From assembly GCA_045617275.1 (NCBI GenBank), contig JAZLII010000063.1, forward strand, positions 22,477 through 86,476: DNA of 64,000 nucleotides, given 5' to 3'. This stretch comes from Bacteroidaceae bacterium. Lineage in GTDB: Bacteria > Bacteroidota > Bacteroidia > Bacteroidales > Bacteroidaceae. The notes beneath the pieces are model-generated. The model did no database searches and was not told the origin of the DNA. It saw only the letters and a list, made by a program, of their open reading frames with translations. The translations under genes and the position numbers were made by a program. Below, piece by piece: positions 17,300 through 31,470 of the stretch (positions are counted from its first letter, which is position 1; every line of letters begins with the position of its first letter).

Positions 17300-17372
17300 T
17301 TGTTTTTATTTGAAACGGCAAAGCTTTGCTTTGTTTTTTTATCTTTTGATTGGTAACGTCCGATTTTATTTG

Positions 17373-17380
17373 TAATTTTG
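17373..17380 (+). promoter_or_regulatory. -7 box TAATTTTG upstream of the CotH-like gene
   Basis: TAnnTTTG match, 60 nt upstream of the ATG at 17440. Confidence 0.4.
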
Positions 17381-17439
17381 CAAAAAGCATTCCTGCGGTT
17401 CCTCTCGAGGGTCGCCCCCATACCACCACCATATTCTCC

Positions 17440-20400
17440 ATGAAAAAGCTCATCGCGATACTTTTGTTGCTTTTAGTGGCCCAAGGCATTTCGGCCCAAA
17501 GCATCTACGACAACCTAATAATCAACGAGATACAAGTTTGCAATACAGACCTTTACATCGATCCGTCCAACAATTATGGCGCATGGATAGAACTCCACAA
17601 CACGGGTACTCAGGTCATCAAACTTGCCGGCCTCTACGTCACCGACGACAAGGAGAATCCCAAGAAATTCAAGATACCTGGCAGCGTGGCCAACCTCAAA
17701 GCCGGGGCATTCCGATGCCTCTGGTTTGATCACAACCAAGCTGACGGCAACTATGGAGGCCAGTCCGACCAGCAAGTGCGCTTCAAGCCCAACGTAGAGG
17801 GTGGAGCCATCTACCTTTTCGACAGCCAAGGGAGTCAGATCTGCAAGGTGGAGTATCCTGCCGGTATCCCTCGCTGTTCGTATGCCCGAACAGAGGATGG
17901 CGGTAAGACATGGGGCACCACCGGCCAACCCACCCCGGGATCATCCAATGCAACCAGTCTTTTTGCCACGGAGCGCCTGCCCATGCCCCAACTCAACCAA
18001 GACGGAGGAGTCTTCGAACAAGGCAAAAAAGTAAGTCTCACCGTGACCATCCCCGATGGAGCCACACTGGCCTACACTACCGACGGAAGCACGCCGTCCC
18101 TGACCAATGGTGTGTGCTCCAGCGACCGTTTCACCTATCTCACTATTGAGCAGACCACCGTACTCCGCTTTGCCACATTTCAGGATGGCTTTTTGCCAAG
18201 CCCGGTAGTCACCCGCTCGTTTATCTTCAAAAATCACGACTACTACCTTCCCGTACTCTCCGTCTCTACTCATCCCGACAATCTCTTCGACAACACCATA
18301 GGCGTCTACTGCACAGGTACCAACGGCATCAGCGGCAAGGGACAGAGCGAACCCAAAAACTGGAACATGGACTGGGAGCGTCCGGTCAACATGGAGTATA
18401 TGGTCCCGGAGCAGAACACAGACGGGACGACATCTTTCATCACTTACATCAACCAAGAGGTGGACCTGGAGATATGCGGTGGATGGACGCGTGCCTACGG
18501 AGGCAACACCACTGATGGTCGCTACTGGGAGGCCAAGCCCAGCTTCCGACTCAAGACCGACAAGGAGTATGAGGGTATCAACGTGCTTGACTATCCAGTC
18601 TTCCCACACAAACCGTACAATAAATATAAGGTGTGGCAAGTGCGCAACGGTGGCAACGACACCTATGCCCGAGTTATCGATACATCCGTCAGTCAGATAG
18701 CCATACGCTCGGACTTCGACATCGACGCACAGGACTGCCAACCGGCTCATATCTTTCTCAATGGCCAGTACCTGGGTATGTTCAACATCCGCGAGAGCAA
18801 CAACCGACACTATGGCTACAGCAACTGGGGTATAGACACCGACGACATGGACCAGTTTGAGCTAGGTGGCGGCATACGCATGATGGTAGGTACGGAGGAT
18901 GCCTGGAAGGAACTGGTCAATCTTGGCTTGCAACTTTCCAAGGACCAGAGCGAGGCCACCTACCAGCAGGTGTGCGACCGTCTCTGCATAGACGAGTTCG
19001 CCAATTTCATGGCCTATGGCCTCTACCTGGGCCCCAGCGACTGGATCACCAACGTCAACAACATAAAGGCCTATCGATCACGTAGCGATGGGGGAAAATA
19101 TCGCTTTGTGCTCTTCGACCAGGATTCTTCGTTTAGCAGCGACCACATGCTCCAGAGCGTCATGAACGGCAACTACGGAGCCAACGTGGACGACCTCTTC
19201 CGCTACCTTATGTCTTATCCACCCTTCAAGAAAAAATTTGTCGATGCCTTCTGCCTAGTCGACGGAAGTCTCTTCGACCCAGAGCGCTGTGAAGAAATCG
19301 TGCAAGAGATATACAACCGTACGAACAAGGCACTCAACTTCGAGGGAAACAGTTCCAACACCGATGTTGCCAAGAAGGCTCGCAGCATGCACAACGGGTC
19401 GCGCATGACCAACATGCAAAGCGTGCTCAGTCTTCCCCAACCGTATTTTGCAGAGATAGCCAGCAACATCCCCGAGGCACAACTCATGCTGAATGGACAA
19501 ATCATCCCTACGGGAAAATTTCAGGGCTTCCTCTACCCCATAGACCAGCAGATACAACTCACCGCCCAGGCACCAGCCGGCTACACCTTCGACAGCTGGA
19601 CATTTGCAGGCAGCGACAAGGGCATCCCGACATCATCCACCGACATCATCCCCTACGGGGCCAGCTGGGAGTACTACGACCAAGGTTCCATGGACGGCAG
19701 GGGATGGCAAGGATTGGATTTCGACAGCAGTTCGCAAGGCTGGAAGTCGGGACGGGCGCCCCTGGGCTATGGCAAGTCGGGCAGCAACATCGCCAACAAG
19801 ACCGTCACCCAGCTCAGCTATGGAGGCGACAGCAACAACAAGCGCCCCACCTACTATTTCCGCTATAAGTTTGATATCGACGAACTTCCCTCAGGAGACG
19901 ATGTCTATGAGTTGCACTATAAGGTGGACGATGGATTCCGCTTCTATATCAATGGAAAGGACATTAACGGATTTCGCTGCCCAGCAGGATGCGACTACGA
20001 CTACGTCACCAACGACTGGGCTGGCGACCAGCCCGATACGGGTGTCTTTACTATCGACCCTGCAGATCTGACCTTGGGAACCAACCTACTGGCAGTCGAG
20101 GTACACAACACCTCACTCACCAGTAGCGACATCTTCTGGGATGCACAACTCTTGCACCTCACCTACGAGACCAACAGCGAGAACGGCACACTCACCAGCG
20201 AGTCGTTCAACCTGACAGAGGCCGTACCTACCGGTTCGTACATCATCACGGCACACTACAGCCCCATCACCGACCCAGAGCAACTTCTGGCAGACGGCAT
20301 CACACCGATTCGCATCAACGAGGTGTCGGCAGCCAACGACATCTACATCAACGACCTGGGCAAACGCAACGACTGGGTGGAGCTATACAACACCACAGAC

Positions 20401-21813
20401 CAGGAGATCGACGTGGCCGGCATGTACCTTAGCGACAAGGCCAAGAAGCCACAGAAATGGCAGATCACCAACATGGGGCATGAGGATGCCAGCACCGTCA
20501 TACCTCCCCATGGTACACTCGTAGTCTGGTGCGACCAGTTGGAGCCCGTCAGCCAGTTGCACGCTCCCTTCAAACTTGACAATGCCGACGGAGCATCCGT
20601 AAGCATCCAGGACCAGTACGGGCGATGGAACGACCGCCTGGACTACATGGAACAACCGCGTTGGCAAACCTTCGGCCGCTATCCTGACGGAAGCAATTTC
20701 TCCACGCTGATGACCAGGCCCACCATCGGCAGTCGCAACCTCATGGGCTTCTACGACTATACACAGGACCTGCCCTCTCAATGGGACGACGGTCTCATCC
20801 ACATCACCATCGATCTGGCTCAAGGATGGAACTGGACCAGCCACAACCTGGCAAGCGACGTGCACATCTCGCGTTTCACCTCAGTTGCGCAAGAGATAGT
20901 GGGACAGAAAAGCGCTTACAAGAAAGACCCTGAGTCGGGTGAGTGGACCGGTGGCCTTGATGGCATGGAGGCCGGACTGGGCTACAAACTCAGTTGTACC
21001 TCCCCCACCCAGGTGACTCTCCGTGGCCCTCTCTTTGCATTCTCATCCACACCAGTCGCCATAAGCAAGGGATGGAACTGGATAGGATGTCCTCTCTTCC
21101 ATGCCACCACCCTGCAGTCTGCATTGGCTCAATTCAGTCCCTCTGAGGGCGACGTCATCGTGGGCCTCGACGAGATAGCCACCTTTGAAGACGGCCAATG
21201 GGAAGGCACGCTTACCTCCGTGCAGCCAGGCCAGGGCTACCTTTACAAAAGCCAGCGTGACAATAGGCTCTACTGGAACGCGCTGAGCGAGAGCAATGCC
21301 GCTCCCCGCCAGTATCGTGCCGCTCAGGCTCGCGAATCGGAGGTATGGACCTACGACATCCATGCCTATCCTCATGTGGAGAGCCTCATCGCTACCTTGC
21401 AGACCGACAAGACCGACATGGCCACCCCGCTCCTCGTAGGTGCTTTTGCGGGCGAAGAATGTCGTGGCGTAGGTCGATGGGACGGCGAACAGTTGCTCTT
21501 CAATATACATGGAGAACAGCCAGACTCATTGACATTCAGACTTTTAGATACGGATGGAAATACCTTTACATCCAAGACCCAGTTCACCTTCCAACCTCAG
21601 ACGGTACTGGGCTCACGCTTGGCTCCCTTTGTCCTGGACTTCAATCCTCAGGACATCGAAGACCTCATCGCAACGCCCAGCATGGGAGGCAAGGTGGTGG
21701 AGCGCTCGTACTACAACCTCCAGGGCCAGCAGATGGAGTCCCCACAGGGCATCTGCATAGAGAAGTGCCTGATGTCGGATGGTAGCCTGAGGGTAAGAAA
21801 AATCCGGAAATAG
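17440..21813 (+). CDS. CotH kinase-like protein with two lamin-tail (LTD) domains and a T9SS C-terminal domain
   Basis: Signal peptide MKKLIAILLLLLVAQGISAQ at 17440. LTD-like LIINEIQVCN...WIELHNTG and IRINEVSAAN...WVELYNTT. Central CotH-like region (WERPVNMEY, FRLKTDKEYEG, VLFDQDSSF). Tail YYNLQGQQMESPQGICIEK. TAG stop. Confidence 0.8.
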   Translation: MKKLIAILLLLLVAQGISAQSIYDNLIINEIQVCNTDLYIDPSNNYGAWIELHNTGTQVIKLAGLYVTDDKENPKKFKIPGSVANLKAGAFRCLWFDHNQADGNYGGQSDQQVRFKPNVEGGAIYLFDSQGSQICKVEYPAGIPRCSYARTEDGGKTWGTTGQPTPGSSNATSLFATERLPMPQLNQDGGVFEQGKKVSLTVTIPDGATLAYTTDGSTPSLTNGVCSSDRFTYLTIEQTTVLRFATFQDGFLPSPVVTRSFIFKNHDYYLPVLSVSTHPDNLFDNTIGVYCTGTNGISGKGQSEPKNWNMDWERPVNMEYMVPEQNTDGTTSFITYINQEVDLEICGGWTRAYGGNTTDGRYWEAKPSFRLKTDKEYEGINVLDYPVFPHKPYNKYKVWQVRNGGNDTYARVIDTSVSQIAIRSDFDIDAQDCQPAHIFLNGQYLGMFNIRESNNRHYGYSNWGIDTDDMDQFELGGGIRMMVGTEDAWKELVNLGLQLSKDQSEATYQQVCDRLCIDEFANFMAYGLYLGPSDWITNVNNIKAYRSRSDGGKYRFVLFDQDSSFSSDHMLQSVMNGNYGANVDDLFRYLMSYPPFKKKFVDAFCLVDGSLFDPERCEEIVQEIYNRTNKALNFEGNSSNTDVAKKARSMHNGSRMTNMQSVLSLPQPYFAEIASNIPEAQLMLNGQIIPTGKFQGFLYPIDQQIQLTAQAPAGYTFDSWTFAGSDKGIPTSSTDIIPYGASWEYYDQGSMDGRGWQGLDFDSSSQGWKSGRAPLGYGKSGSNIANKTVTQLSYGGDSNNKRPTYYFRYKFDIDELPSGDDVYELHYKVDDGFRFYINGKDINGFRCPAGCDYDYVTNDWAGDQPDTGVFTIDPADLTLGTNLLAVEVHNTSLTSSDIFWDAQLLHLTYETNSENGTLTSESFNLTEAVPTGSYIITAHYSPITDPEQLLADGITPIRINEVSAANDIYINDLGKRNDWVELYNTTDQEIDVAGMYLSDKAKKPQKWQITNMGHEDASTVIPPHGTLVVWCDQLEPVSQLHAPFKLDNADGASVSIQDQYGRWNDRLDYMEQPRWQTFGRYPDGSNFSTLMTRPTIGSRNLMGFYDYTQDLPSQWDDGLIHITIDLAQGWNWTSHNLASDVHISRFTSVAQEIVGQKSAYKKDPESGEWTGGLDGMEAGLGYKLSCTSPTQVTLRGPLFAFSSTPVAISKGWNWIGCPLFHATTLQSALAQFSPSEGDVIVGLDEIATFEDGQWEGTLTSVQPGQGYLYKSQRDNRLYWNALSESNAAPRQYRAAQARESEVWTYDIHAYPHVESLIATLQTDKTDMATPLLVGAFAGEECRGVGRWDGEQLLFNIHGEQPDSLTFRLLDTDGNTFTSKTQFTFQPQTVLGSRLAPFVLDFNPQDIEDLIATPSMGGKVVERSYYNLQGQQMESPQGICIEKCLMSDGSLRVRKIRK

Positions 21814-21922: not shown

Positions 21923-22822
21923 TTATACCAAATGGCGGATGATATCCTCACGGTCACCGGGGAGATAGTCGATGACGGGGATCTCAATCATGGTGTACGC
22001 TCCGGGCTGCTGCTTCATAGAGGCGCGAGCCACATTGACAAGTACCTGAGCGGTCAGCGCGGGATTGTTGATCTACATGTTGAACTCGAAGAGCTGGTTG
22101 TGGGTCTGTCCACTTACACCCTTACGTACGAGGTTGACACCATGGCCCACATCGTTGAGTGCATCTACACTGTCCACCTGATATACATGGGTCTCGTCGC
22201 TTGCAAAGTAAGGATCGGCCTTGATGTCGGCAGTCACCTTCTCGAGGTCCGCACCTTCCTCCAACTCTACATATACCATACGGCGATGGATACCCTCACC
22301 GCAGGGGATGGTCATGGAGAGCGCATCCTTCACACCTTCCTTGGAGCGTACACATACGCTGTGACCCATAGAGCGGCCGGGGCCGAAATTGGTATAACTG
22401 ATACCCTTGGGAGCAAGGCTCTCCATCAGGGTGCGCACTACAGAGTCGCTTCCGGGATCCCAGCCGGCAGAGATGATGCTCACTGCACCTGCCTTCTTGG
22501 CTGCTGCATCGAGCGAGCGGCGGAGGTCACAGATCTGTCCGTGGATGTCGAAGCTGTCCACGGTATTGATACCCAGAGCCAGCATCTCGAGCGCATACTT
22601 CTCTACGCTGCGGGTGGGAGTGGCGAGGATGGCTACATCCACCTTACCCAACTCCTTGATATCCTTCACTACGGCATAGTCTGCCAACTCAGCAGGACGG
22701 TTTTCTGCACCATTGCGACGTACCACACCTACAATCTCCATATCGGGGGCTGCCTGCAAAGCCTGCAGGGTGTAACGGCCAATGTTGCCATAGCCCACGA
22801 TTGCTACCTTAATCTTACTCAT
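21923..22822 (-). pseudogene. ddh: meso-diaminopimelate D-dehydrogenase interrupted by an in-frame TAG at 22073-22075
   Basis: The track ORF 22073..22822 (249 aa, MSKIKVAIVGYGNIGRY...) ends at TAG. The same frame continues for 49 codons ([49 protein letters not shown]) to TAA at 21923-21925, giving 299 codons in total. Confidence 0.8.
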
Positions 22823-22859: not shown

Positions 22860-22867
22860 CAAAGATA
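22860..22867 (-). promoter_or_regulatory. -7 box TATCTTTG upstream of ddh
   Basis: Reverse complement of CAAAGATA, about 38 nt upstream of the ATG at 22822. Confidence 0.4.
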
Positions 22868-23030
22868 ATCATTTTTTCAATACAAACCACGATTCGGTGA
22901 CATTTTTCTCTATATAGTGGCATGATTTGTAAACTCAAGTTTGTTTTAGCACCCATTTTGCACCTCCATAAGCCAACTTCCCCTCTTGCATCGCTCCTTG
23001 CATGCCATGCAGGTGCATTGCCTCGGTCAT

Positions 23031-23091
23031 GCGCATGCATCGGTCAAGTCAGGCGCATGCATCGGTCAAGCCAGGCGCATGCATGAAGCAG
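23031..23091. repeat. 22-bp tandem repeat x2.7 (GCGCATGCATCGGTCAAG[TC]CAG)
   Basis: Units at 23031-23052 and 23053-23074, partial unit at 23075-23091. Each unit starts with the palindrome GCATGC. Confidence 0.85.
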
Positions 23092-23126: not shown

Positions 23127-23433
23127 TTTTTTCAAAAAAATGCAAACACTCTACCAAACATACACAACCACCTCAGATTCACAATGTTAACAAGGTAGAG
23201 TCTACGTCAAACACTCTACCAACACTCTACCAACACTCTACCAAGACTCTACCAGGAGGCATTCTGTTTTGCATTGAAACGATCGTCCTACAAAATGAAA
23301 AGTAGGTAGAGTGTTGGTAGAGTCTTGGTAGAGTGTTGGTAGAGACTTGAGGATTGACTCTACCTGTGTATTTAACTGATATTCTGCAATATACACCTCT
23401 TTGGTAGAGTGTTGCCCATTTTTTTCAAAAAAA
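23127..23433. repeat. About 300-bp nested palindrome built from 12 copies of ACTCTACC/GGTAGAGT, including 4+4 inverted 11-bp iterons
   Basis: Outer arms 23127-23158 and 23400-23433 (TTTTTTCAAAAAAATGCAAACACTCTACCAAA and its near-complement). Inner arms 23211-23254 (4 x ACACTCTACCA-type units) and 23305-23348 (4 x GGTAGAGTGTT-type units) are 40/44 complementary, around a 50-bp spacer. Confidence 0.85.
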
Positions 23434-23634
23434 TAGCATGCACCCCAATCCGGACCATGGGGAATAATCTGCGAGAATAGGGCAAGAGCGATGCGATATA
23501 ACATGCAGAAAAACGAACGCAGCACACCATAAAGCAAGAAATGTTTTAATTGTATTAAAAAATATAAAGAATCGTTTAGCCATGTGCGAAAACTTTTGTT
23601 ACTTTGCAGTCCGTAACAGCGCGCACATACTTTT

Positions 23635-24411
23635 ATGTACAAAAAACTTCTTTTATCCATGCTGGCAGCAACTTTTGTTGCGGTTCGTTGCCTGGCATGG
23701 GGGCAGGTGGGTCACGACACCACTTGCAAGATTGCAGAAAAGCACCTCACCAAGAAGGTGCAGGAGAAAATTTCCCAAGTCCTTGACGGCAAAAGCATCA
23801 TCTACTGGAGCAACTGGCTCGACAATGCCAGTCACCAGCCTGAGTATGCCTACGCATCCACTTGGCACTACAAGAACATCGATGCCGGACAGGCGTATGA
23901 AGAGGTAGTCCCCCTGGAGACCGGTGACGTGGTGACTGCACTCACAGAGCAGGTGGCCAAACTGAAATCTCACCGCCTGAGCCACGAAGAGGAAGCGCTG
24001 GCACTGAAGATGGTGGTTCACCTGATGGGCGACTTGCACCAGCCCATGCACCTCGGACACCTGAGCGATCTGGGAGGCAACCGGATTTACGTGGACTTCT
24101 TCAAGGAGCGCACCAACCTGCACCACGTGTGGGACGAGGACCTCGTGGAGAAAGGACACCACTGGACCTATGACGAGTGGACGGAGCAGATAGACCGCAC
24201 CACAAAGCAAGAGCAGGAGGAGATACTGAAAGGCAACTTCGATGACTGGGCCAAAGAGACCCTGGCCATCGCCACCCGTGTGTACGATGCCACTCCGGAG
24301 AACACCAAGATCAGCTATGACTATGTGGCCGAGTGGACACCCGTAGTGGAACAGCAGTTCCTCAGAGGTGGCCTCCGACTGGCCAGGATACTCAATGAGA
24401 TATACAGGTAA
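23635..24411 (+). CDS. Secreted S1/P1-family nuclease
   Basis: Signal peptide, then WGQVGH, HLMGDLHQPMHLGH and NLHHVWD. These match the zinc-ligand motifs of S1/P1 nucleases. Confidence 0.85.
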   Translation: MYKKLLLSMLAATFVAVRCLAWGQVGHDTTCKIAEKHLTKKVQEKISQVLDGKSIIYWSNWLDNASHQPEYAYASTWHYKNIDAGQAYEEVVPLETGDVVTALTEQVAKLKSHRLSHEEEALALKMVVHLMGDLHQPMHLGHLSDLGGNRIYVDFFKERTNLHHVWDEDLVEKGHHWTYDEWTEQIDRTTKQEQEEILKGNFDDWAKETLAIATRVYDATPENTKISYDYVAEWTPVVEQQFLRGGLRLARILNEIYR

Positions 24412-24459
24412 ATCGAAAGAAAACAAGAAACATATATTCATTAACCAAAAATCAACTTT

Positions 24460-27400
24460 ATGCAGAAAAAATTGCATTTGCTTTTTGCGCTGATGATGTT
24501 TGTAGCATCATCGGCCATGGCACAGATCACCACCTCTGGCCTGAGCGGTAAGATCACCGACGGCTCTGAGGAACTGATCGGTGCACGCGTAGAGGCTACC
24601 CACACGCCTTCCGGTACACGCTATGTAGCCGTGACCAACGCCAAGGGTCAGTATGCCATCAATGGTATGCGCGTCGGTGGTCCTTATGAGATCAAAGTGT
24701 CTTACATTGGCTTTGAGCCCAAGAGCGTGAATGGTATCACCCTCACCTTGGGAGAGACCTACCGCCAGAACTTCAACCTGAAGGAGAGCAGCCAAGAGTT
24801 GCAGGACATCGTGGTGACTGGTAGCAAGAGTAAGTTTGCCGGTCAGAAGACCGGTGCTGTCACCAACATCAGTGGTGAGCAGATGGCCAACATGCCTACC
24901 GTCGGTCGTAGCATCACTGAGTTTACTCGCCTCTCTCCCTACGGAGGCAACGGCATGACTTTCATGGGTCAGGATGGCCGTACAGCCAACTTCACCGTAG
25001 ACGGTGGTAACTTCAACAACGACTTCGGTCTGAGCGACGGTCTGCCCGGTGGTGGCAACCCCATCTCCATCGAGGCTATCGAGGAGATGCAGGTAGTCAT
25101 CGCTCCCATGGACGTTCGCCAGAGCGGCTTCATCGGCGGTGGTATCAACGCTATCACCAAGTCGGGTACCAACACCTTCAAGGGTAGTGCCTACGTTTAT
25201 CATCAGAATGAGAACATGCGCGGTGATGCCATCGACGGAGAGCAACTTCCTATCGCCCGCCAAAAGGATCGCAAGACTACCTACGGCTTCACCTTGGGCG
25301 GTCCTATCCTCAAGAACAAACTGTTCTTCTTCGTCAACGGTGAGTTCGCCAAGTCGCCCAACCAGGCCGTAACCTGGCGTGCATCAGAGAACGGTGTGGG
25401 CAACGAGACTGCCGGCCTCGCATACACCACCATCGAGGATATGCAGAAGGTTCAGGACTTTGCCATGAGCAAGTATGGCTACAACACCGGTTCCTACACC
25501 GACTTCCCCGCCGATGAGAAGAACAGCAAACTGCTTGCTCGCATCGACTGGAACATCAACGACAAGAACCATCTGGCTCTGCGCTACAACTACACCAGCA
25601 ACACCAACTGGATCGGCCCCAATGCCTCATCCATGGATGGCGGTGTACGCTCTGCATTCAATCGTACCTCGCTCTACTCCATGGCTTTCGCCAACTCTAT
25701 GTACTCTATGGACAACCTCGTCCACGGTGTATCTCTCGACCTGAACAGCCGCATCAACAACAACCTCAACAACCAGTTCCTGGCCACCTTCACCAAGAAG
25801 GACGACGTACGTGGTTCCAACTCTGACGAGTTCCCCTTCATTGACATCCAGGATGGCACGAACACGAACACCCAGTACATGTCTCTCGGCTACGAGCTCT
25901 TCACCTGGAACAATGCCGTCCACACCACCAACGCCACCGTCAAGGATGAGTTGACCTGGTACCTGGGCAACCACAAGATCTTTGGAGGACTCACCTATGA
26001 GTACCAGATGGACGACAACCAATACATGCGCAACGGTACTGGCTACTACCGCTATCGTAGCGTCAACGACTTCCTGAACGGCAACACCCCCGAGGTTGTC
26101 TGCCTCACTTATGGCTACGGTGGTGAGAAGTCACCTGCTGCTCGCGTACGTTACAATAAGGTAGGTCTCTACTTGCAGGACGAATGGACCGTAAACGACC
26201 GCTTCAACCTGAACTATGGTATCCGTCTGGAGTCTTTGATGTTCAACAACAAGGACCTCATGACCAACAATGCCATTCTGGCTCTCGACTACAACGGTCG
26301 CCACATCGATACCGGCAAATGGCCTTCAACCCAGATCATCGCTCAGCCTCGTGTGGGCTTCAACTGGGACGTACTGGGCAATAAGACCTTGAAAGTACGC
26401 GGTGGTTCTGGTATCTTCGCAGGCCGTCTGCCTATGGTATTCTTCACCAACATGCCCACCAATGGCGGTATGGTACAGTATCAGGCTCAGATCGGTCCCT
26501 CTATCAAGGATGCCAACCTGCCTCAGTCTGTACAGGACATGGGCTACACAAGCGTAAACTCTATCCTGCAGCAGTTCAACGCAGCCAACAACAATGGCTA
26601 TGGTCTGGCTGTGGATGCCAACGGCAAGGCTACCATAGAAGCTCTTCAGCAGAAGCTGATCGGCATGGGCTACCCCTCTGACATCACTCCCGAGAAGGGT
26701 GCTGCACCCAGCTCTATCTCTGCCGTAGATCCCAAGTTCAAGATGCCCATGATATGGAAGAACTCACTGGCCATCGAGTATACCTTGCCCGTAAGCTTCC
26801 CCATGACCATCACTGCCGAGGGTACTTTCAACAAGGATATCCACAAGGCTACCATCTCAGACTGGAGCATGATGGACGTAGAGGGCTTCACTCGCTGGAA
26901 CGGTGCTGATGCACGTCCCATCTTCCCCTCTAACTTCCGCACCACAAACAAGGCATTCGTGCTGGAGAATACCAGCAAGGGCTACAACTATTCATTCACT
27001 CTGAACATGAATGCAAGCCCCTGCAAGTTCATCGACCTCTTTGCAGCCTACACTCACACGGGTGCCAAGGAACTGACCTCACTGCCCGGTTCGGCTGCTG
27101 AGTCTGCCTTCACATACGTTCCCACCGTCAATGGTCCCAACAACATCAAGCTGCACAACGCTATCAACGTGGAGCCCGACCGCTTCATCGCAAGCATCAA
27201 CGGCCATGACAAGTCCAACAACCACTACAGCCTGATCTATGAGACCTGGCGCGGCGGTTACAACTACTCTTACATGATGGCCAACGATATGAATGGCGAT
27301 GGTTACAACTACGATGCTCTCTATATTCCTACAGACAAGCAGGTGGCCGATGGCGAGTTCCGTTTCGTAAGCAACGATGACCAGCAGCGCTTCATGGACT

Positions 27401-27786
27401 ACGTACACAACAGCAGCTACCTGAGCAAGCATCAGGGTGAGTATGCCGAGGCTTACAGCGTATACAGTCCTTGGGTACACCGTGTAGACGTGAGCTACAA
27501 GCACAACTTCAAGGTGAAGGCTGGCAAGCAGATGAACACCCTGCAGCTGGGCTTCGACATCAAGAACCTCATGAACCTCTTCTGCAACAGCTGGGGCGTA
27601 AGCAAGTACATGAATGCCAAGCTCAACTCAGGTCGCATCCTGAAGTACGAGAAGACCGATGCCGACGGCCACCCCGTATTCTCTACCCCCAAGGCTGTGG
27701 ACGGCAAGATCGAGACTTTCGGCCTCAACCATGCCATTGGCCAGTGCTGGTACATGTCAGTAGGTTTGAAGTATATGTTTAACTAA
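24460..27786 (+). CDS. TonB-dependent outer-membrane transporter, Oar-like (carboxypeptidase-regulatory-like N-domain + plug + about 900-aa barrel)
   Basis: Signal peptide. The GKITDG...GARVEATH...AKGQYAINGMRVGGPYEIKVSYIGF fold signature. Plug region. 1108 aa. No SusD-like gene follows. Confidence 0.85.
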   Translation: MQKKLHLLFALMMFVASSAMAQITTSGLSGKITDGSEELIGARVEATHTPSGTRYVAVTNAKGQYAINGMRVGGPYEIKVSYIGFEPKSVNGITLTLGETYRQNFNLKESSQELQDIVVTGSKSKFAGQKTGAVTNISGEQMANMPTVGRSITEFTRLSPYGGNGMTFMGQDGRTANFTVDGGNFNNDFGLSDGLPGGGNPISIEAIEEMQVVIAPMDVRQSGFIGGGINAITKSGTNTFKGSAYVYHQNENMRGDAIDGEQLPIARQKDRKTTYGFTLGGPILKNKLFFFVNGEFAKSPNQAVTWRASENGVGNETAGLAYTTIEDMQKVQDFAMSKYGYNTGSYTDFPADEKNSKLLARIDWNINDKNHLALRYNYTSNTNWIGPNASSMDGGVRSAFNRTSLYSMAFANSMYSMDNLVHGVSLDLNSRINNNLNNQFLATFTKKDDVRGSNSDEFPFIDIQDGTNTNTQYMSLGYELFTWNNAVHTTNATVKDELTWYLGNHKIFGGLTYEYQMDDNQYMRNGTGYYRYRSVNDFLNGNTPEVVCLTYGYGGEKSPAARVRYNKVGLYLQDEWTVNDRFNLNYGIRLESLMFNNKDLMTNNAILALDYNGRHIDTGKWPSTQIIAQPRVGFNWDVLGNKTLKVRGGSGIFAGRLPMVFFTNMPTNGGMVQYQAQIGPSIKDANLPQSVQDMGYTSVNSILQQFNAANNNGYGLAVDANGKATIEALQQKLIGMGYPSDITPEKGAAPSSISAVDPKFKMPMIWKNSLAIEYTLPVSFPMTITAEGTFNKDIHKATISDWSMMDVEGFTRWNGADARPIFPSNFRTTNKAFVLENTSKGYNYSFTLNMNASPCKFIDLFAAYTHTGAKELTSLPGSAAESAFTYVPTVNGPNNIKLHNAINVEPDRFIASINGHDKSNNHYSLIYETWRGGYNYSYMMANDMNGDGYNYDALYIPTDKQVADGEFRFVSNDDQQRFMDYVHNSSYLSKHQGEYAEAYSVYSPWVHRVDVSYKHNFKVKAGKQMNTLQLGFDIKNLMNLFCNSWGVSKYMNAKLNSGRILKYEKTDADGHPVFSTPKAVDGKIETFGLNHAIGQCWYMSVGLKYMFN

Positions 27787-27806
27787 TATTGTACAGTCAT
27801 AAGATT

Positions 27807-29411
27807 ATGAAACTCAAATATTTCTTTGGACTTTTACTGAGCATCCTCTTCATGACCGGTTGCTCTGAAGATGCCATCGTAGGCTCTCTCGACGAGATCT
27901 CTGTGGATCAGACTTTCGTTTCGATCCCTGCTGGTGGTGGTAAGGTCGTTGTAACCCTCAAGGCCGACCAGGCCTGGGAGTTCATGCCTCACTATTATAA
28001 GAATGCCGTTTATACCAAAAACGACCATCTCAATGAGATGACCGTTCTTCCCGACTGGCTGACTGCTTCCCAGGTAAGCGGAGAGACTGGCGAGACCAAG
28101 GTCGAGTTCTCTGCCAAGAGTTGTGAGTACGGTCGTGAAGCCGAAGTGATGATTCGTTGTGGCGAGAAGACTCAGTTCGTCAACGTGCGTCAGGGTTCGA
28201 TGGATGCTTCCAAAGCAACCTGTGCCGAGGTCATCGCCGGAGCTGATGGCAAGACCTACATCGCTTCCGGTACGGTAACATCCATCGCCAATACCACATA
28301 CGGCAACTGGTACCTGAATGATGGTACCGGTGAGGTATACATCTATGGTACACTCGATGCTGATGGTGCCACCAAGAACTTCACCAGCCTCGGCATCGAG
28401 GTAGGCGACGTAGTCACCGTACAGGGTCCCAAGACCACCTACGGTACCACCGTAGAGTTGGTAGACGTCACCGTACTGAAGATAGAGAAGGCCCTGCTGA
28501 AGGTTACCGAGGAGCCCAAGAGCGTAGCAAAAGAAGGCGGCGAGGCAACCTTTAAGGTAGCATACAAGGGCAGCGGTATCTTCCTGAATATCCCTGAGGA
28601 TTGTCCTTGGGTAAATCTGAAGAGCATGAACTATGTGGCAGGCGTTCCCACCAAACTGGAGAAAGCTCCCGCCGACACAGCCATCGTCACCCTATCCGTA
28701 GCCCCCAACACCGGTGCTGCACGTGCTGCCACCGTCATCGTTTCATCCAAGAAGGAGAAGAACTCGACCGACGCCAAGATCACCGTCTCTCAGGAGGGTG
28801 CCATCCAGGATGTCAACTGCGCTCAGTTCAACGCCCAGGAGGACGGTGAGGCTCAGTACAAGGTACGCGGCATCATCACCAGTATCACCAACACCACCTT
28901 TGGCAACCTCTACATCAATGATGGTACAGGTGAGGTATACGTCTACGGTATGCTCGATGCTGAAGGCAACACCAAGAACTTCCTGTCGCTGGGCCTGAAG
29001 GTAGGCGACGAGGTGGTACTGCAGAGTGTGAAGACCTCACACAACAACAGTCCTCAGATGAAGAACGCCACACTCGTATCTGTAGTGCCTCACGAGGTGA
29101 AGACCGTAGCCGAACTGAAGGCTTTGCCCGACGACAAGGATACCTACTTCCTTGTGACCGGTACCGTATGCCACGCAGAGGAGGCAAGTGCCAAGTTTGA
29201 CCTTGAGCAATATGGCAATTTCGGTCTGCAGGACGAGACCGGCACCATCTACGTCTATGGTGTAGCAGATGCTTTGAATGGCAAGACCAAGAACTTTGCA
29301 GCTACGGGCGTAAAGGAGGGTGACAAGATCACCATCCTGGCCTACAAGACCAGCTACAAGGATACCATCGAGCTGGTAGGTCAGTTCATCAAGAAAGAAA
29401 GTGCTGAGTAG
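27807..29411 (+). CDS. Surface lipoprotein: two BACON-like modules and three OB-fold-like repeats
   Basis: Lipobox FMTGC; the ATG at 27807 is preferred over the TTG at 27789. Three repeats share [YF]GN-x-Y[LI]NDGTGE[VI]Y[IV]YG-x-LDA-x-G-x-TKNF-x-SLG-x-x-VGD. Modules ending in V-x-Q-[GE]G are BACON-like. TAG stop. Confidence 0.7.
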   Translation: MKLKYFFGLLLSILFMTGCSEDAIVGSLDEISVDQTFVSIPAGGGKVVVTLKADQAWEFMPHYYKNAVYTKNDHLNEMTVLPDWLTASQVSGETGETKVEFSAKSCEYGREAEVMIRCGEKTQFVNVRQGSMDASKATCAEVIAGADGKTYIASGTVTSIANTTYGNWYLNDGTGEVYIYGTLDADGATKNFTSLGIEVGDVVTVQGPKTTYGTTVELVDVTVLKIEKALLKVTEEPKSVAKEGGEATFKVAYKGSGIFLNIPEDCPWVNLKSMNYVAGVPTKLEKAPADTAIVTLSVAPNTGAARAATVIVSSKKEKNSTDAKITVSQEGAIQDVNCAQFNAQEDGEAQYKVRGIITSITNTTFGNLYINDGTGEVYVYGMLDAEGNTKNFLSLGLKVGDEVVLQSVKTSHNNSPQMKNATLVSVVPHEVKTVAELKALPDDKDTYFLVTGTVCHAEEASAKFDLEQYGNFGLQDETGTIYVYGVADALNGKTKNFAATGVKEGDKITILAYKTSYKDTIELVGQFIKKESAE

Positions 29412-29442
29412 GATATAGATTTTACTCAAGCATATATCATCA

Positions 29443-29479
29443 AGCAGGCTTCGTCATTGGGTCGAAGCCTGCTCTTTTT
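29443..29479 (+). terminator. Rho-independent terminator ending the nuclease/TBDT/lipoprotein operon
   Basis: AGCAGGCTTCG-N9-CGAAGCCTGCT followed by CTTTTT. Confidence 0.7.
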
Positions 29480-29597
29480 GTACAGTAAATGCCCGAGGAA
29501 TTGCATTTCGAGAGCCATGACGATTGCGCTAAATCAATTTTTTTCCTTATTTATAAAATAATAGGGAGATACACCACACACATTCGGGATTTTTGTG

Positions 29598-29605
29598 TAT
29601 TTTTG
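29598..29605 (+). promoter_or_regulatory. -7 box TATTTTTG upstream of the purH fragment / mre operon
   Basis: TAnnTTTG match, 75 nt upstream of the ATG at 29680. Confidence 0.4.
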
Positions 29606-29679
29606 CAACCTCAAATATGCGCCCCTTTGAAGGGGACCTGTGAAACGGCAATTATCAATCATTAAACAAGCATACAATT

Positions 29680-30276
29680 ATGGCAGAAACAAGAAAAATA
29701 AAGAGAGCGTTGGTCAGCGTATTCCACAAGGACGGACTGGACGAGATCTTGCGCAAGCTCCACGCTGAGGGCGTAGAGCTGTTGTCAACCGGTGGCACCC
29801 AGGCCTTCATCGAGTCACTTGGCATCCCTTGCCAGAAGGTAGAGGACGTGACCAGCTATCCCAGCATCCTGGGTGGTCGCGTGAAGACCCTTCACCCCAA
29901 GGTATTCGGTGGTATCCTCGGTCGTCGCGAACTGGAAGGCGATCAGCAGCAGATGGCTCAGTATGAGATTCCCGAGATCGACCTCGTCATCGTAGACCTC
30001 TATCCCTTCGAGCAGACCGTGGCAAGCGGAGCAAGCGAGGCAGACATCATCGAGAAGATCGACATCGGCGGCATCAGCCTCATCCGTGCTGCAGCCAAGA
30101 ACTTCCGCGACGTCATCATCGTTCCTTCTAAGGAGGAGTACAAGCCCCTCTTAGAGCTTCTCCAGAAGAATGGCGCACAGAGCGAGATAGAGGATCGCAA
30201 GTGGTTTGCCACACAGGCATTTGGCGTAAGCAGCCACTACGACACCGCCATCCACGCTTGGTTTGAGAAGAACTAA
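29680..30276 (+). CDS. purH: IMP cyclohydrolase (MGS-like N-terminal domain of PurH) as a stand-alone 198-aa protein
   Basis: KRALVSVFHKDGL, LLSTGGT, GGRVKTLHPKVFGGIL, VIVDLYPF and DIGGISLIRAAAKN match the PurH N-domain. The ORF stops after the linker helix. No AICAR-transformylase domain follows. Confidence 0.8.
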   Translation: MAETRKIKRALVSVFHKDGLDEILRKLHAEGVELLSTGGTQAFIESLGIPCQKVEDVTSYPSILGGRVKTLHPKVFGGILGRRELEGDQQQMAQYEIPEIDLVIVDLYPFEQTVASGASEADIIEKIDIGGISLIRAAAKNFRDVIIVPSKEEYKPLLELLQKNGAQSEIEDRKWFATQAFGVSSHYDTAIHAWFEKN

Positions 30277-30388
30277 TAAAACAGGAAGACTAAACTTCTT
30301 GATTTTCCAGCTCGTCTATAGCCTATACACCCCCAGTTCCTATAGACTGGCCAGAAAAACTTGAAAACGCATAAAGCAGATTACAACT

Positions 30389-31408: not shown

Positions 31409-31470
31409 TACCCTTACACGGGAAAACGTGAATGACACTTTACAGGTAAGCAAGAGATAGCAGAAGACTG

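What the first reader, a model, noticed from the sequence alone, without database searches (positions are those of the whole stretch)
23127..23433. About 300-bp nested palindrome of 11-bp iterons (12 copies of ACTCTACC/GGTAGAGT) in the 800-bp gap upstream of the nuclease operon
Four tandem 11-mers (ACACTCTACCA x3 and AGACTCTACCA, 23211-23254) face four inverted 11-mers (23305-23348) across a 50-bp spacer. The two sets are 40/44 complementary. Outer arms at 23127-23158 and 23400-23433 (TTTTTTCAAAAAAATG-CAAACACTCTACCAAA and its complement) bracket the whole structure. Each half also carries one oppositely oriented copy (23194, 23357), which allows local hairpins. An 11-bp period equals one helical turn, as in iteron or centromere-like arrays; the parC site of plasmid R1 is a loose analogy only. 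The structure could be any of four things: an operator array for an unidentified DNA-binding protein controlling the divergent ddh and nuclease operons, an invertible (phase-variable) promoter segment, a non-autonomous palindromic element, or a structured RNA. No recombinase or regulator is encoded next to it.
Basis: seen in the sequence. Interest (0 to 1): 0.62.

Follow-up and report, generated by a model that had tools for sequence, protein, structure and literature searches.

The report
Dispersed palindromic binding-site repeat of gut Bacteroidales
The 300-bp "nested palindrome" is real. It is one copy of a non-coding repeat scattered about ten times per genome in gut Prevotella-like bacteria, built from twelve copies of one short protein-binding site at fixed spacings, so it is most likely a miniature mobile element and not a switch for the neighbouring genes.

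Summary
There are 11 exact ACTCTACC/GGTAGAGT 8-mers plus one 1-mismatch copy, all within 23148-23410 (chance expectation 1.5 in the whole window). Start-to-start spacings are perfectly symmetric: 46,19,11,11,11,[59],11,11,11,19,46.

It is not locus-specific. The same layout (46-48, 19-20, 11, 11, (11), variable centre, mirrored) occurs in four other places in two Bacteroidales MAGs, next to unrelated housekeeping genes, and at the orthologous site of a close relative. In public gut metagenomes the array is 10-70x deeper than its flanks. One sample holds at least four long contigs of equal depth, each with a copy.

Only the 13-bp sites (AACACTCTACCAA) and their spacing are conserved. DNA between sites is near random, even between the two arms of one element, so the symmetry is one of binding sites and not of a hairpin. 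Relatives with ddh next to the nuclease gene have a 190-243 bp gap without the array. Tandem unit number and inner deletions vary between strains.

Best reading (about 0.5): a MITE/BIME-like "foldback" element, two multi-site ends joined back to back and serviced by an unidentified protein encoded elsewhere. No transposase, target duplication or clean empty site was found. The operator, inverton and RNA readings are unsupported.

The parts
23127..23141 (.). Left terminal T-run/A-run, TTTTTTCAAAAAAAT. It is an exact direct repeat of 23420-23434 and is also nearly its inverted complement. It may be the element terminus, a duplicated target or an A/T-tract flank.
   Evidence: (D9, I7). All ten half-elements compared carry a T-run/A-run 7-30 nt outside the outer site.
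23145..23157 (+). Outer left site, AACACTCTACCAA.
   Evidence: Present at the same relative place in L101, L040 and L090.
23158..23193 (.). Left inter-site spacer. Its length is conserved (site starts 46-48 bp apart) but its sequence is not.
   Evidence: mean pairwise identity of this segment among 10 half-elements is 0.40 against 0.32 for random sequence. The two arms of the window copy are unlike here.
23194..23201 (-). Left inner site in the opposite orientation. With the first tandem site it forms the 27-bp palindrome GGTAGAGT(ctacgtcaaac)ACTCTACC. The family form is GGTAGAGTGTT-N5-AACACTCTACC.
   Evidence: The 19-20 bp distance to the first tandem site is kept in every copy and in at least 10 paralogue ends seen in metagenome contigs.
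23210..23254 (+). Left tandem array, 4 x 11 bp (AACACTCTACC x3, AAGACTCTACC).
   Evidence: (D1).
23255..23304 (.). Central spacer of 50 bp. It is not conserved in sequence or length across copies (26-90 bp between the inner arrays).
   Evidence: Loose ends after the left array all differ between paralogues.
23305..23348 (-). Right tandem array, 4 x 11 bp (GGTAGAGTGTT, GGTAGAGTCTT, GGTAGAGTGTT, GGTAGAGACTT).
   Evidence: (D2). Conserved in the orthologous copy L176.
23357..23364 (+). Right inner site in the opposite orientation (mirror of 23194).
23365..23400 (.). Right inter-site spacer. Its length is conserved and its sequence evolves fast.
   Evidence: 25/38 identical to the orthologue L176, against 180/201 in the flanking intergenic DNA and 40/40 in the sites.
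23401..23413 (-). Outer right site, TTGGTAGAGTGTT.
23420..23434 (.). Right terminal T-run/A-run, TTTTTTCAAAAAAAT.
23031..23084 (+). Adjacent 22-bp tandem repeat (GCGCATGCATCGGTCAAGCCAG, 2.5 copies), 43 bp left of the element. Whether it belongs to the element is uncertain. Its copy number varies between samples.
   Evidence: A 22-bp extra unit appears in one metagenome contig. L040 also has a 22-bp array (4 copies) about 50 bp outside its element, but L101 and L090 have none and the units are not clearly alike.

Best explanation
The segment 23127-23434 is one copy of a dispersed, non-coding repeat family of about 260-310 bp in gut Prevotella-group Bacteroidales. In kind it is a MITE/BIME-like 'foldback' element.

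What is shown:
- The conserved part is a fixed layout of 10-12 copies of a 13-bp site (AACACTCTACCAA; TCTACC invariant), not a sequence palindrome.
- Each half has an outer site, then about 38 bp of free sequence, then an oppositely oriented site that forms a 27-bp palindrome with the first of 3-4 tandem sites spaced 11 bp apart.
- The two halves face each other across a variable centre.
- The family has about ten copies per genome. They sit in intergenic DNA among housekeeping genes and vary in presence between related species.
- The family changes by gain and loss of units and by deletions between sites.

What is inferred:
- Each half is the multi-site end of a transposable element, and the copy is two such ends joined back to back with no gene between them.
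- A sequence-specific DNA-binding protein encoded elsewhere (a transposase, recombinase or domesticated relative) occupies the sites. The tandem ones lie on one face of the helix. The 38-bp free segment would act as a bend or loop that brings the outer and inner sites together. The result would be a paired-end complex that moves or maintains the element.
- At this locus it is a passenger between two divergent promoters, not their operator.
For: Same layout elsewhere:
- L101 (+-++++---+-), L090, L040 and the half-copy L083 come from two MAGs. Site spacings are 46-48/19-20/11/11 on both arms in every copy.
- In alignment A1 the invariant columns are the sites. Overall identity is 65%.
- A logo from 49 sites gives AACACTCTACCAA.

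Unrelated flanks:
- argR; DUF2007/thioredoxin-like; DUF6359/ClpB; ispG, purE, rpoN.
- No protein recurs next to the arrays.

Multi-copy:
- Array depth is 100-476 against 3-15 in the flanks, with at least 10 different flanks, each keeping GGTAGAGT 19 nt before the array.
- At the L101 locus the array:flank ratio is about 10 in three samples (28 to about 270, 22 to about 260, 13 to 137).
- One sample has four long contigs of depth 12-14, each with a copy.

Presence and absence:
- L173/L174 (Ddh 97% identical) and L177 have ddh next to the nuclease gene with only 243 or 190 bp between them and no array.
- L176 (nuclease 94%) has the element at the same place.

Sites constrained, spacers free:
- Orthologue comparison gives sites 40/40, element non-site 50/72, flanking intergenic 180/201.
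- Inter-site identity among arms is 0.40 against 0.32 for random sequence.

Structural turnover:
- An 89-bp inner deletion between direct sites, and changes of 11 and 22 bp in unit number.
- A solo half-copy, L083, whose inner boundary is also seen in another sample.

No coding capacity: only a 140-aa shadow ORF with no Pfam match.
Against: - No transposase or recombinase was tied to the family. None was found among 27 window proteins tested or near any other copy.
- No full-length element with a gene between two half-arrays was found.
- No unambiguous target-site duplication was found. The 15-bp direct repeat is also part of the inverted repeat, and other copies show none.
- No clean empty site exists. 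Homology to the array-less relatives stops at about 22882 and resumes at about 23590, so the comparison shows replacement of about 700 bp and not a precise insertion.
- Copies within one MAG (L101 against L090) are as diverged from each other as from the window copy. That is not the signature of a recent burst. It fits long-term maintenance of sites, which a host function or gene conversion would also give.
- Only about six copies were read base by base. The copy-number estimate rests on assembler word depth.
Confidence: 0.5

Rival explanations
1. Host-maintained architectural or regulatory array. A chromosomally encoded Bacteroidales DNA-binding protein (nucleoid-associated, or a response-regulator-type protein that binds 11-bp direct repeats) occupies the twelve sites. 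It would form a looped complex that acts as an insulator, a decoy or titration site, a topological barrier or a long-range regulatory element. The family would have spread long ago and is now kept by selection on the host.
For: - Sites are perfectly conserved (40/40) in the orthologous copy while neighbouring positions diverge.
- Copies within one genome are old and diverged yet keep the sites and spacing.
- All copies lie in core-gene neighbourhoods with no mobile-element genes nearby.
- The same 8-mer core in 10/11-bp arrays turns up in other Bacteroidota lineages: Lentimicrobium (6 loci) and the Bacteroidales MAG CAXXOX01.
Against: - Flanking genes share no function.
- The element is absent from the same intergenic region in related species.
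- Half-copies and inner deletions are tolerated.
- No candidate protein was found.
- Gene conversion among paralogues would give the same pattern of conserved sites and scrambled spacers without host selection.
Confidence: 0.22
2. Remnant or miniature of an integrative element. The tandem and inverted sites would be arm-type sites of a tyrosine recombinase (as P1, P2 and P'1-3 are in lambda attP), and the 15-bp direct repeats would be the crossover core.
For: - Tandem sites at 10-11 bp spacing on one arm, inverted relative to the other arm, with a free segment between outer and inner sites, match attP logic.
- That free segment carries an 8-9/9 match to the E. coli IHF consensus in four arms of one MAG.
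- An exact 15-bp direct repeat brackets the window copy.
- In MAG CAXXOX01 an array of the same 8-mer lies inside a 3-copy repeat of more than 7.5 kb that has an integrase fragment and two NikA-like mobilisation genes.
Against: - No integrase lies near any Prevotella-type copy.
- The solo half L083 is flanked by ispG, purE and rpoN, not by an island.
- Other copies have no bracketing direct repeat.
- The IHF-like match is absent from the window copy (7/9 at best).
- CAXXOX01 proteins have no homologue in the window or in the other loci, and its array has the opposite polarity.
Confidence: 0.07
3. Structured nucleic acid. The element would act as a long hairpin in RNA or single-stranded DNA, for example as a two-way terminator or transcript stabiliser (stem closed by the outer sites and followed by a T-run on either strand), or as a hairpin recognised by a single-strand transposase of the REP/RAYT type.
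For: - Predicted fold of -74 kcal/mol, z = -11.6.
- Every half has an A/T tract outside the outer site, so either strand reads stem then T-run.
- In L040 and L090 the element lies between genes on the same strand.
- Local 11-bp stem/5-nt loop hairpins are possible at the inverted-site/first-tandem-site pair.
- The site contains GTAG, the tetranucleotide conserved in REPs (recalled from my own knowledge, not tested).
Against: - No Rfam match at E <= 1.
- The RNAalifold covariation term is +3 kcal/mol, which lends no support to the fold, and nearly all pairs lie in invariant sites.
- The 38-nt segments of the two arms are not complementary.
- In the window the element lies between divergent promoters, where no transcript is expected to cross it.
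- No RNA data were available.
Confidence: 0.07
4. Local operator or invertible (phase-variable) promoter segment controlling ddh and/or the nuclease-TonB-receptor operon.
For: - Position between two divergently transcribed units.
- Nested inverted repeats could in principle be recombinase targets.
- An 11-bp phase is typical of cooperative regulator binding.
Against: - The same element occurs beside unrelated genes.
- Relatives keep the ddh and nuclease promoters without it.
- The promoters lie outside it.
- The centre, the only part whose orientation would change, is unconserved and holds no -33/-7 pair.
- No recombinase or regulator gene is nearby.
- No inverted joint was seen in the contigs, though contigs are a weak test.
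Confidence: 0.05
5. Relic of a plasmid or phage origin, partition site or packaging site: 11-bp iterons as in R1 parC, plus the neighbouring 22-bp iterons as Rep sites.
For: - 11-bp and 22-bp tandem arrays lie side by side.
- Nested arrays of the same 8-mer lie directly upstream of the small terminase gene in a group of phage contigs.
Against: - There is no rep, par or terminase gene here.
- The family is multi-copy in core chromosome regions.
- No match was found in the plasmid or phage collections or in viral contigs for the Prevotella-type layout.
- The phages are proteobacterial and use different spacings.
Confidence: 0.03

Closest known systems
BrickBuilt MITE of Porphyromonas gingivalis (Klein et al. 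2015, PMC4596501)
   Same: - Bacteroidales host.
- Non-coding and always intergenic.
- About 19 copies per genome.
- Contains a tandem short repeat without spacers, with a variable number of units, between inverted-repeat ends.
- No linked transposase.
   Different: - BrickBuilt has one direct array of 23-nt units between a 'leader' and a 'tail'.
- Here 11-bp units form two facing arrays plus four single sites at fixed distances.
- There is no sequence similarity, and the family spans several genera.
[quoted passage not shown]
   Same: The arms are made of tandem copies of a short protein-binding motif in inverted orientation. Many copies consist of the two arms only. Arm structure varies through unit gain and loss.
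   Different: Those are eukaryotic and kilobase-sized, with a known P-superfamily transposase and target duplications. None of these was shown here.
REP/BIME mosaic elements of enterobacteria (REPIN-RAYT systems)
   Same: - Dispersed intergenic mosaics of short units in alternating orientation with fixed inter-unit segments.
- Variable number of units.
- Bound by proteins encoded elsewhere: IHF, gyrase, and the RAYT transposase (from my own knowledge of the field).
- Vertically persistent.
   Different: REP units are themselves imperfect palindromes of about 35 bp recognised as hairpins. Here the unit is an asymmetric 13-bp site. No RAYT gene was looked for genome-wide, and this could not be done here.
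Multi-site ends of Mu, Tn7, Tn552 and Tn402 transposons, and lambda attP/cosB
   Same: Several phased binding sites for one protein at each end or arm. Some sites are inverted relative to others. A bendable segment lies between the outer and inner sites (R3-I1-R2 in cosB; P1-H1-P2 in attP). This comparison is from my own knowledge.
   Different: Those sites are about 20 bp long and flank coding DNA, and their proteins are known. Here the sites are 13 bp at an 11-bp phase, and nothing is encoded between the ends.
parC centromere of plasmid R1 (two sets of five 11-bp iterons bound by ParR)
   Same: Two blocks of 11-bp iterons, with phasing on one helix face.
   Different: parC blocks are direct, flank the par promoter, occur once per plasmid and sit next to parMR. 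Here the blocks are inverted, the element is multi-copy and chromosomal, and there are no par genes.
Correia elements of Neisseria
   Same: Short palindromic non-coding elements at high copy number, some with an IHF site in the middle, inserted between genes. This comparison is from my own knowledge.
   Different: Correia elements have simple 26-bp terminal repeats and a TA duplication, with no internal iteron layout.

Membership tests
MITE (miniature inverted-repeat transposable element) | Short (under about 800 bp) with no coding capacity | tested here: met
   The element is 308 bp. The only ORF across it is a 140-aa shadow ORF with no Pfam hit. Other copies are 260-310 bp.
MITE (miniature inverted-repeat transposable element) | Terminal inverted repeats | tested here: met
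   The outer arms 23127-23158 and 23400-23431 are 26/32 complementary. Equivalent outer repeats occur in L101, L040 and L090.
MITE (miniature inverted-repeat transposable element) | Many dispersed copies within one genome | tested here: met
   - At least 2 copies in each of two MAGs.
- Array:flank depth of about 10 in three samples, and four equal-depth long contigs with copies in one sample.
- At least 10 distinct flanks.
- Only one copy in this 64-kb window.
- Depth is the assembler's word depth, so the number is approximate.
MITE (miniature inverted-repeat transposable element) | Target-site duplication flanking the ends | tested here: inconclusive
   The exact 15-bp direct repeat TTTTTTCAAAAAAAT lies at both ends but is also part of the inverted repeat. 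No clear duplication was seen in L101, L040 or L090.
MITE (miniature inverted-repeat transposable element) | Filled and empty sites at orthologous loci | tested here: inconclusive
   The element is present in the window and L176 and absent in L173, L174 and L177, which keep ddh-nuclease adjacency. The empty loci differ over about 700 bp, so no precise boundary could be drawn. No skipping joint was seen in the contigs.
MITE (miniature inverted-repeat transposable element) | A related autonomous element with the same ends and a transposase | tested here: not met
   - None in the loci held.
- None in viral contigs, plasmids or phages.
- The protein-word search with the shadow ORF found nothing.
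REP/BIME (RAYT-associated) | Unit is an imperfect palindrome with a 5' GTAG, and a RAYT gene is in the genome | not testable with these tools
   The unit is asymmetric. A hairpin arises only from the pair of an inverted site and a tandem site. GTAG is inside the site. The genome outside the window was not available to look for a RAYT gene.
Iteron replication origin / R1-type parC centromere | Adjacent rep or parMR genes; a single locus per replicon | tested here: not met
   The neighbours are ddh and an S1/P1 nuclease operon. The context is core chromosome with mreBC, gldH and rplS. The family is multi-copy.
Inverton (invertible promoter) | Inverted repeats flanking a promoter, a nearby invertase, and both orientations present in the population | tested here: inconclusive
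   There is no invertase among the tested neighbours and no -33/-7 promoter pair in the centre. Orientation could not be tested because all runs were available only as assembled contigs.
Operator array of a local regulator | Sites overlap or adjoin the regulated promoters, and the same sites precede functionally related genes | tested here: not met
   The promoters lie 150-240 bp away and the flanking genes of other copies are unrelated.
Known structured RNA family | Match to an Rfam model, or covariation supporting a fold | tested here: not met
   No Rfam match at E <= 1 or at gathering score in four other loci. The covariation term is +3 kcal/mol, which lends no support to the fold, and only 4 of 60 pairs show double changes.
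Integrative-element att site | Recombinase gene and island next to the site, with direct-repeat cores at both island ends | tested here: not met
   No integrase is nearby. There is no second array at the far end of the nuclease operon (29412-29679). The half-copy L083 sits among housekeeping genes.

The most novel reading that the evidence does not exclude
The element would be the first bacterial 'foldback' transposon family, or a domesticated descendant of one. It would be a chromosome-wide set of about ten 12-site platforms per genome, on which an as yet unknown Bacteroidales protein assembles a symmetric, looped complex. The same 8-bp core (ACTCTACC), in the same three-tier arrangement (outer site, inverted site(s), tandem block, mirrored), is also used by a group of proteobacterial phages next to their small terminase gene. 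That would point to a widespread and undescribed DNA-binding module and assembly logic shared by mobile elements, phages and chromosomes.
Probability: 0.2. Interest if true: 0.7.

Novelty: new variant of a known kind. Interest (0 to 1): 0.5.

Why it matters
Prevotella-group bacteria dominate many human and livestock guts, yet their repeat content is poorly described.

- A roughly 10-copy element whose only conserved feature is a strict layout of binding sites marks out an unknown sequence-specific DNA-binding protein, and gives an easy bait (AACACTCTACCAA arrays) to fish for it.
- These arrays break short-read assemblies. Here contigs end inside them. They also vary by unit number and inner deletions, so they affect MAG contiguity and could serve as strain markers.
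- If a transposase services them, this would be a bacterial counterpart of eukaryotic foldback elements.
- If a host protein does, it would be a new kind of chromosome-organising or insulating site in Bacteroidales.

For this locus the practical message is negative. The array is not evidence for special regulation of ddh or the nuclease operon.

Tried and rejected
- **Shadow-ORF protein search.** I searched the 5.8-billion-protein set with the shadow ORF that runs through the right arm, to collect paralogous copies. 213 word candidates came up and none scored.
- **Exact look-ups.** The window's nuclease and Ddh proteins are not on record.
- **Metagenome scan.** The scan with GGTAGAGTGTTGGTAGA gave 54 hits. 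All but one were chance matches with a single pair of sites, many inside genes. The exception, L162, is a one-directional array and not the family layout.
- **Plasmid, phage and viral searches.** BLAST of the element against the plasmid and phage collections, and two stricter viral scans, found nothing. BLAST masks simple repeats, so the two BLAST negatives are weak.
- **Recurrent neighbour proteins.** All-against-all BLASTP over 40 loci found none.
- **CAXXOX01 proteins.** TBLASTN of the mobilisable element's proteins against the window and the other copies gave no hit.
- **IHF-like bend site.** The match is perfect or near-perfect in the four arms of MAG CALBJW01 only and absent in the window copy, so I did not use it as a family feature.
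- **The 22-bp tandem array as a second module.** It is present next to two of four copies, but the units are not convincingly alike. I left it as uncertain.
- **Array at the far end of the nuclease operon.** I looked for one that would have made the operon an island bounded by such sites. There is none, only an ordinary terminator hairpin.
- **Literature.** Searches for the motif and for Bacteroidales interspersed repeats found no description of this family. Motif hits were primers and tRNA probes.
- **RNA runs.** None were usable.
Full report
**1. The observation**

- ACTCTACC or its complement occurs 11 times in the 64-kb window, all between 23148 and 23410. Chance expectation is 1.47, and none of 100 shuffles reached 11. 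A twelfth copy with one mismatch (GGTAGAGA) lies at 23338.
- Tandem Repeats Finder reports 11-bp arrays at 23210-23254 and 23305-23349.
- The repeat finder reports the facing arrays and the outer arms 23127-23158 / 23400-23431. In the right register the arrays are 40/44 complementary, and the outer arms 26/32.
- No other 8-mer in the window is as clustered.
- Start-to-start distances between the twelve sites are 46, 19, 11, 11, 11, 59, 11, 11, 11, 19, 46, which is perfectly symmetric.
- An exact 15-bp direct repeat, TTTTTTCAAAAAAAT, sits at both ends and is nearly self-complementary.
- The element lies in the 812-bp gap between ddh (22822 downward, minus strand) and an operon of an S1/P1 nuclease, a TonB-dependent receptor and a BACON/OB-fold protein.

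**2. It is a family, not a local device**

A scan of one genome per species for two sites 11 bp apart gave mostly chance hits. It also gave several Bacteroidales loci with whole arrays.

- Four of these, from two MAGs, have the window's architecture: L101 and L090 (Prevotellaceae MAG CALBJW01), and L040 plus the half-copy L083 (MAG JAZQQX01). The orientation string is +-++++---+- in L101, against +-++++----+- in the window.
- Site distances are 46-48, 19-20, 11, 11, (11) on each arm in every copy. The centre varies from 26 to 90 bp.
- In the alignment the invariant columns are the sites, and overall identity is 65%.
- A logo of 49 sites gives AACACTCTACCAA with TCTACC invariant. The core is partly fixed by the way I picked the sites.
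- The genes next to these copies have nothing in common: argR; a DUF2007 protein and a thioredoxin-like protein; DUF6359 and ClpB; ispG, purE and rpoN.
- No protein family recurs beside the arrays in 40 loci.

**3. Copy number**

Logan contigs of gut metagenome runs that hold the window's locus show a word depth of 100-476 over the tandem array against 3-15 in the flanks. They also show at least ten different sequences leading into the array, each with GGTAGA(G/A)T placed 19 nt before the first tandem unit.

At the L101 locus the array:flank ratio is close to 10 in three samples of different depth (28 to about 270, 22 to about 260, 13 to 137). In one sample four long contigs (5.7, 12.7, 13.8 and 2.3 kb) of equal depth (12-14) each carry a copy. 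I take this as about ten copies per genome in that species.

In about 110 kb of related genomes fetched for other reasons there was no further copy, and the 64-kb window has one. So the density is of the order of one per 100-300 kb.

**4. Presence, absence and turnover**

- A contig from a close relative (nuclease 94% identical) has the right half of the element at the same place.
- Contigs from more distant relatives keep ddh next to the nuclease gene with only 243 bp (L173/L174, Ddh 97% identical) or 190 bp (L177) between them and no array.
- The comparison is not a clean filled/empty pair. Homology ends about 60 bp upstream of the ddh start (about 22882) and resumes at the conserved nuclease promoter block (about 23590).
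- At the L101 locus one sample has an 89-bp deletion that removes the inner arrays, joined at a CAAC shared by two directly oriented sites. Other samples have one or two fewer 11-bp units.
- L083 is a solo half whose inner boundary is seen again in another sample.

**5. What is conserved**

- Between the window and its orthologue L176 the sites are 40/40 identical. The other positions of the element are 50/72 identical. The adjacent intergenic DNA is 180/201 and the nuclease gene 94%.
- Among ten half-elements the 38-40 nt between the outer and inverted sites is 40% identical on average, against 32% for random sequence. The two arms of a single element are no more alike there than arms of different copies.
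- So the 'palindrome' is a symmetry of binding sites and distances, not of sequence.
- A consensus fold puts nearly all pairs in invariant sites. The covariation term is +3 kcal/mol, which lends no support to the fold.
- There is no Rfam match.
- This argues for protein recognition of double-stranded sites and against a hairpin as the functional form. Local 11-bp hairpins (inverted site plus first tandem site) remain possible.

**6. Position relative to promoters**

The ddh promoter is a good Bacteroidetes -33/-7 pair (TTTG ... TATCTTTG) at 22860-22890. The block TTTTGTTACTTTGCA, conserved upstream of the nuclease gene in all relatives, is at 23593-23607. The element lies 150-240 bp from both, in the dead zone between two divergent promoters. 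The centre has no promoter pair.

**7. Mechanism**

I commit to the following as the most likely reading, at about 0.5. Each half is a multi-site transposon end, and the element is two ends back to back.

- A protein encoded elsewhere binds the 13-bp sites. The 11-bp phase puts the tandem sites on one face of the helix.
- The inverted site and the first tandem site form a dimer-type palindrome, GGTAGAGTGTT-N5-AACACTCTACC.
- The free 38-bp segment lets the outer site fold back onto the inner block. In one MAG this segment carries 8-9/9 matches to the E. coli IHF consensus at a fixed offset, but the window copy does not.

What is shown: the layout, its conservation, the multi-copy dispersed distribution, the lack of coding capacity, and the structural turnover.

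What is inferred: protein binding, end-pairing and mobility.

What is missing: a transposase, a target duplication, a clean empty site and an autonomous relative.

The main rival (0.22) is that a host protein uses these arrays and selection keeps them. The old, diverged yet site-perfect copies favour that reading. So would gene conversion among copies.

**8. Other readings**

- A dedicated operator, an inverton, an att-site remnant, a plasmid/phage origin relic and a structured RNA are each disfavoured by specific tests. These are set out under the rival explanations and the membership table.
- Orientation heterogeneity could not be tested. Every run was available only as assembled contigs.

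**9. Known relatives**

- The nearest described thing in the same order is the BrickBuilt MITE of P. gingivalis. It is an intergenic, roughly 19-copy element containing a 23-nt minisatellite (PMC4596501). It has a single direct array and no site layout of this kind.
- In architecture the closest analogues are eukaryotic Foldback/Galileo elements, whose long inverted repeats are tandem arrays of transposase-binding motifs (PMC3688188).
- Other analogues, from my own knowledge, are enterobacterial BIMEs and the multi-site ends of Mu/Tn7 or the arms of lambda attP/cosB.
- A large MITE catalogue for Bacteroidota exists (PMC11602168) and may contain this family as an unnamed cluster. I found no description of it.

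**10. Side findings**

- The same 8-mer builds nested arrays in other settings. In Bacteroidales MAG CAXXOX01 the array sits inside a 3-copy mobilisable element that has an integrase fragment and NikA-like genes. A Lentimicrobium MAG has small +++--- palindromes at six loci. A group of PhiJL001/NP1-like phage contigs has them at two conserved places per genome, one directly upstream of the small terminase gene.
- The phage arrays have their own fixed distances (14-28, 11, 38, 9, 9) but the same three-tier orientation logic. This may be coincidence, since I searched for this very 8-mer, or a shared DNA-binding module.

**11. Verdict**

Its third interpretation, a non-autonomous palindromic element, is the right direction. 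It is a new variant of a known kind, namely dispersed palindromic non-coding repeats. The site layout is unusual and strictly conserved, and the protein partner is unknown. Interest: moderate (0.5).

Noticed in passing
window 22073-22075 (ddh, minus strand): ddh has an in-frame stop at codon 250. The frame then continues to the normal end at 21923, and relatives are 297-299 aa. Every metagenome contig laid on the locus reads T instead of A at 22075, which gives a sense codon. So this is either a nonsense mutation or an error in this assembly.
   Followed up: partly
window 23031-23084: A 22-bp tandem repeat (GCGCATGCATCGGTCAAGCCAG, 2.5 copies) lies in a GC-rich stretch 43 bp left of the element. 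One metagenome contig has an extra 22-bp unit, and loose ends show the motif also occurs elsewhere. L040 has an unrelated-looking 22-bp array (4 copies, 5710-5800) about 50 bp outside its copy of the element.
   Followed up: partly
window 23635-29411 compared with L198-L205, L173: The operon of nuclease, TonB-dependent receptor and BACON/OB protein is a variable insert. In species with 90%-identical Ddh, ddh lies directly opposite purH-mreB-mreC. In the window those genes follow the operon at 29680-32310. In L173, Ddh is 97% identical but the nuclease only 73%, so the region upstream of ddh is a recombination or replacement hotspot.
   Followed up: partly
L200:2530-2705 (also L201, L203) compared with L198:2700: A different, clean 175-bp MITE-like insertion with 20-bp perfect terminal inverted repeats (AATGTTCAAAAAATAACTTC ... 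GAAGTTATTTTTTGAACATT) is present or absent in the ddh-purH gap of otherwise near-identical pig-gut contigs. The same gap is therefore hit by another small element in a sister species.
   Followed up: no
L194:6640-6882, L193:5037-5311, L180:7184-7458 (locus A); L196:4385-4656, L192:14684-14853, L178:2094-2365 (locus B): Viral contigs related to phage PhiJL001 and Pseudomonas phage NP1 (portal about 50% identical) carry roughly 275-bp nested palindromes of the same 8-mer ACTCTACC, with fixed spacings (14-28, 11, 38, 9, 9, centre, mirrored). There are two per genome. One lies directly upstream of the small terminase gene. The other lies after the tail gene and before a DUF932 gene. They may be packaging or regulatory sites. 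A link to the Bacteroidales family is unproven.
   Followed up: partly
L102:4457-4612 (= L059:4799-4954, L081:3352-3507): In Bacteroidales MAG CAXXOX01 an array of the same 8-mer (outer site, four GGTAGAGT at a 10-11 bp period, four ACTCTACC, outer site) lies inside a repeat of more than 7.5 kb present three times at 99.97% identity. That repeat carries an integrase fragment, a STAND-type NTPase and two NikA-like mobilisation genes. It is probably an integrative mobilisable element.
   Followed up: partly
L013, L018, L022, L024, L029, L043 (Lentimicrobium MAG CAZXQT01): Six loci of one MAG carry small palindromes of three ACTCTACCTCA units facing three TGAGGTAGAGT units across 10-25 nt. This is a simpler dispersed hairpin repeat with the same 8-bp core.
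   Followed up: no
L207:3440-3520 and 3730-3800; L206:2140-2230 and 3720-3800: Another species (Ddh 91% identical) has an 817-bp gap upstream of ddh with other iteron-like arrays (TGACGAACGG x4; GATGCATATTTTTCGGCAC x3). In L206 an AAA_14/DUF4143 gene is inserted between the two arrays.
   Followed up: no
window 23210-23254 and all family sites: The 10-mer CTCTACCAAC (complement GTTGGTAGAG) equals the D-arm/D-loop consensus of many tRNAs (…CAGTTGGTAGAGC…). Literature hits for the 10-mer included primers and a tRNA-detection protocol. This is probably coincidence, and I did not explore it.
   Followed up: no
window 17350-21813: A 1487-aa protein with lamin-tail, CotH kinase-like and chitobiase C-terminal domains lies upstream on the + strand; its 3' end abuts the 3' end of ddh. 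I only annotated it.
   Followed up: no
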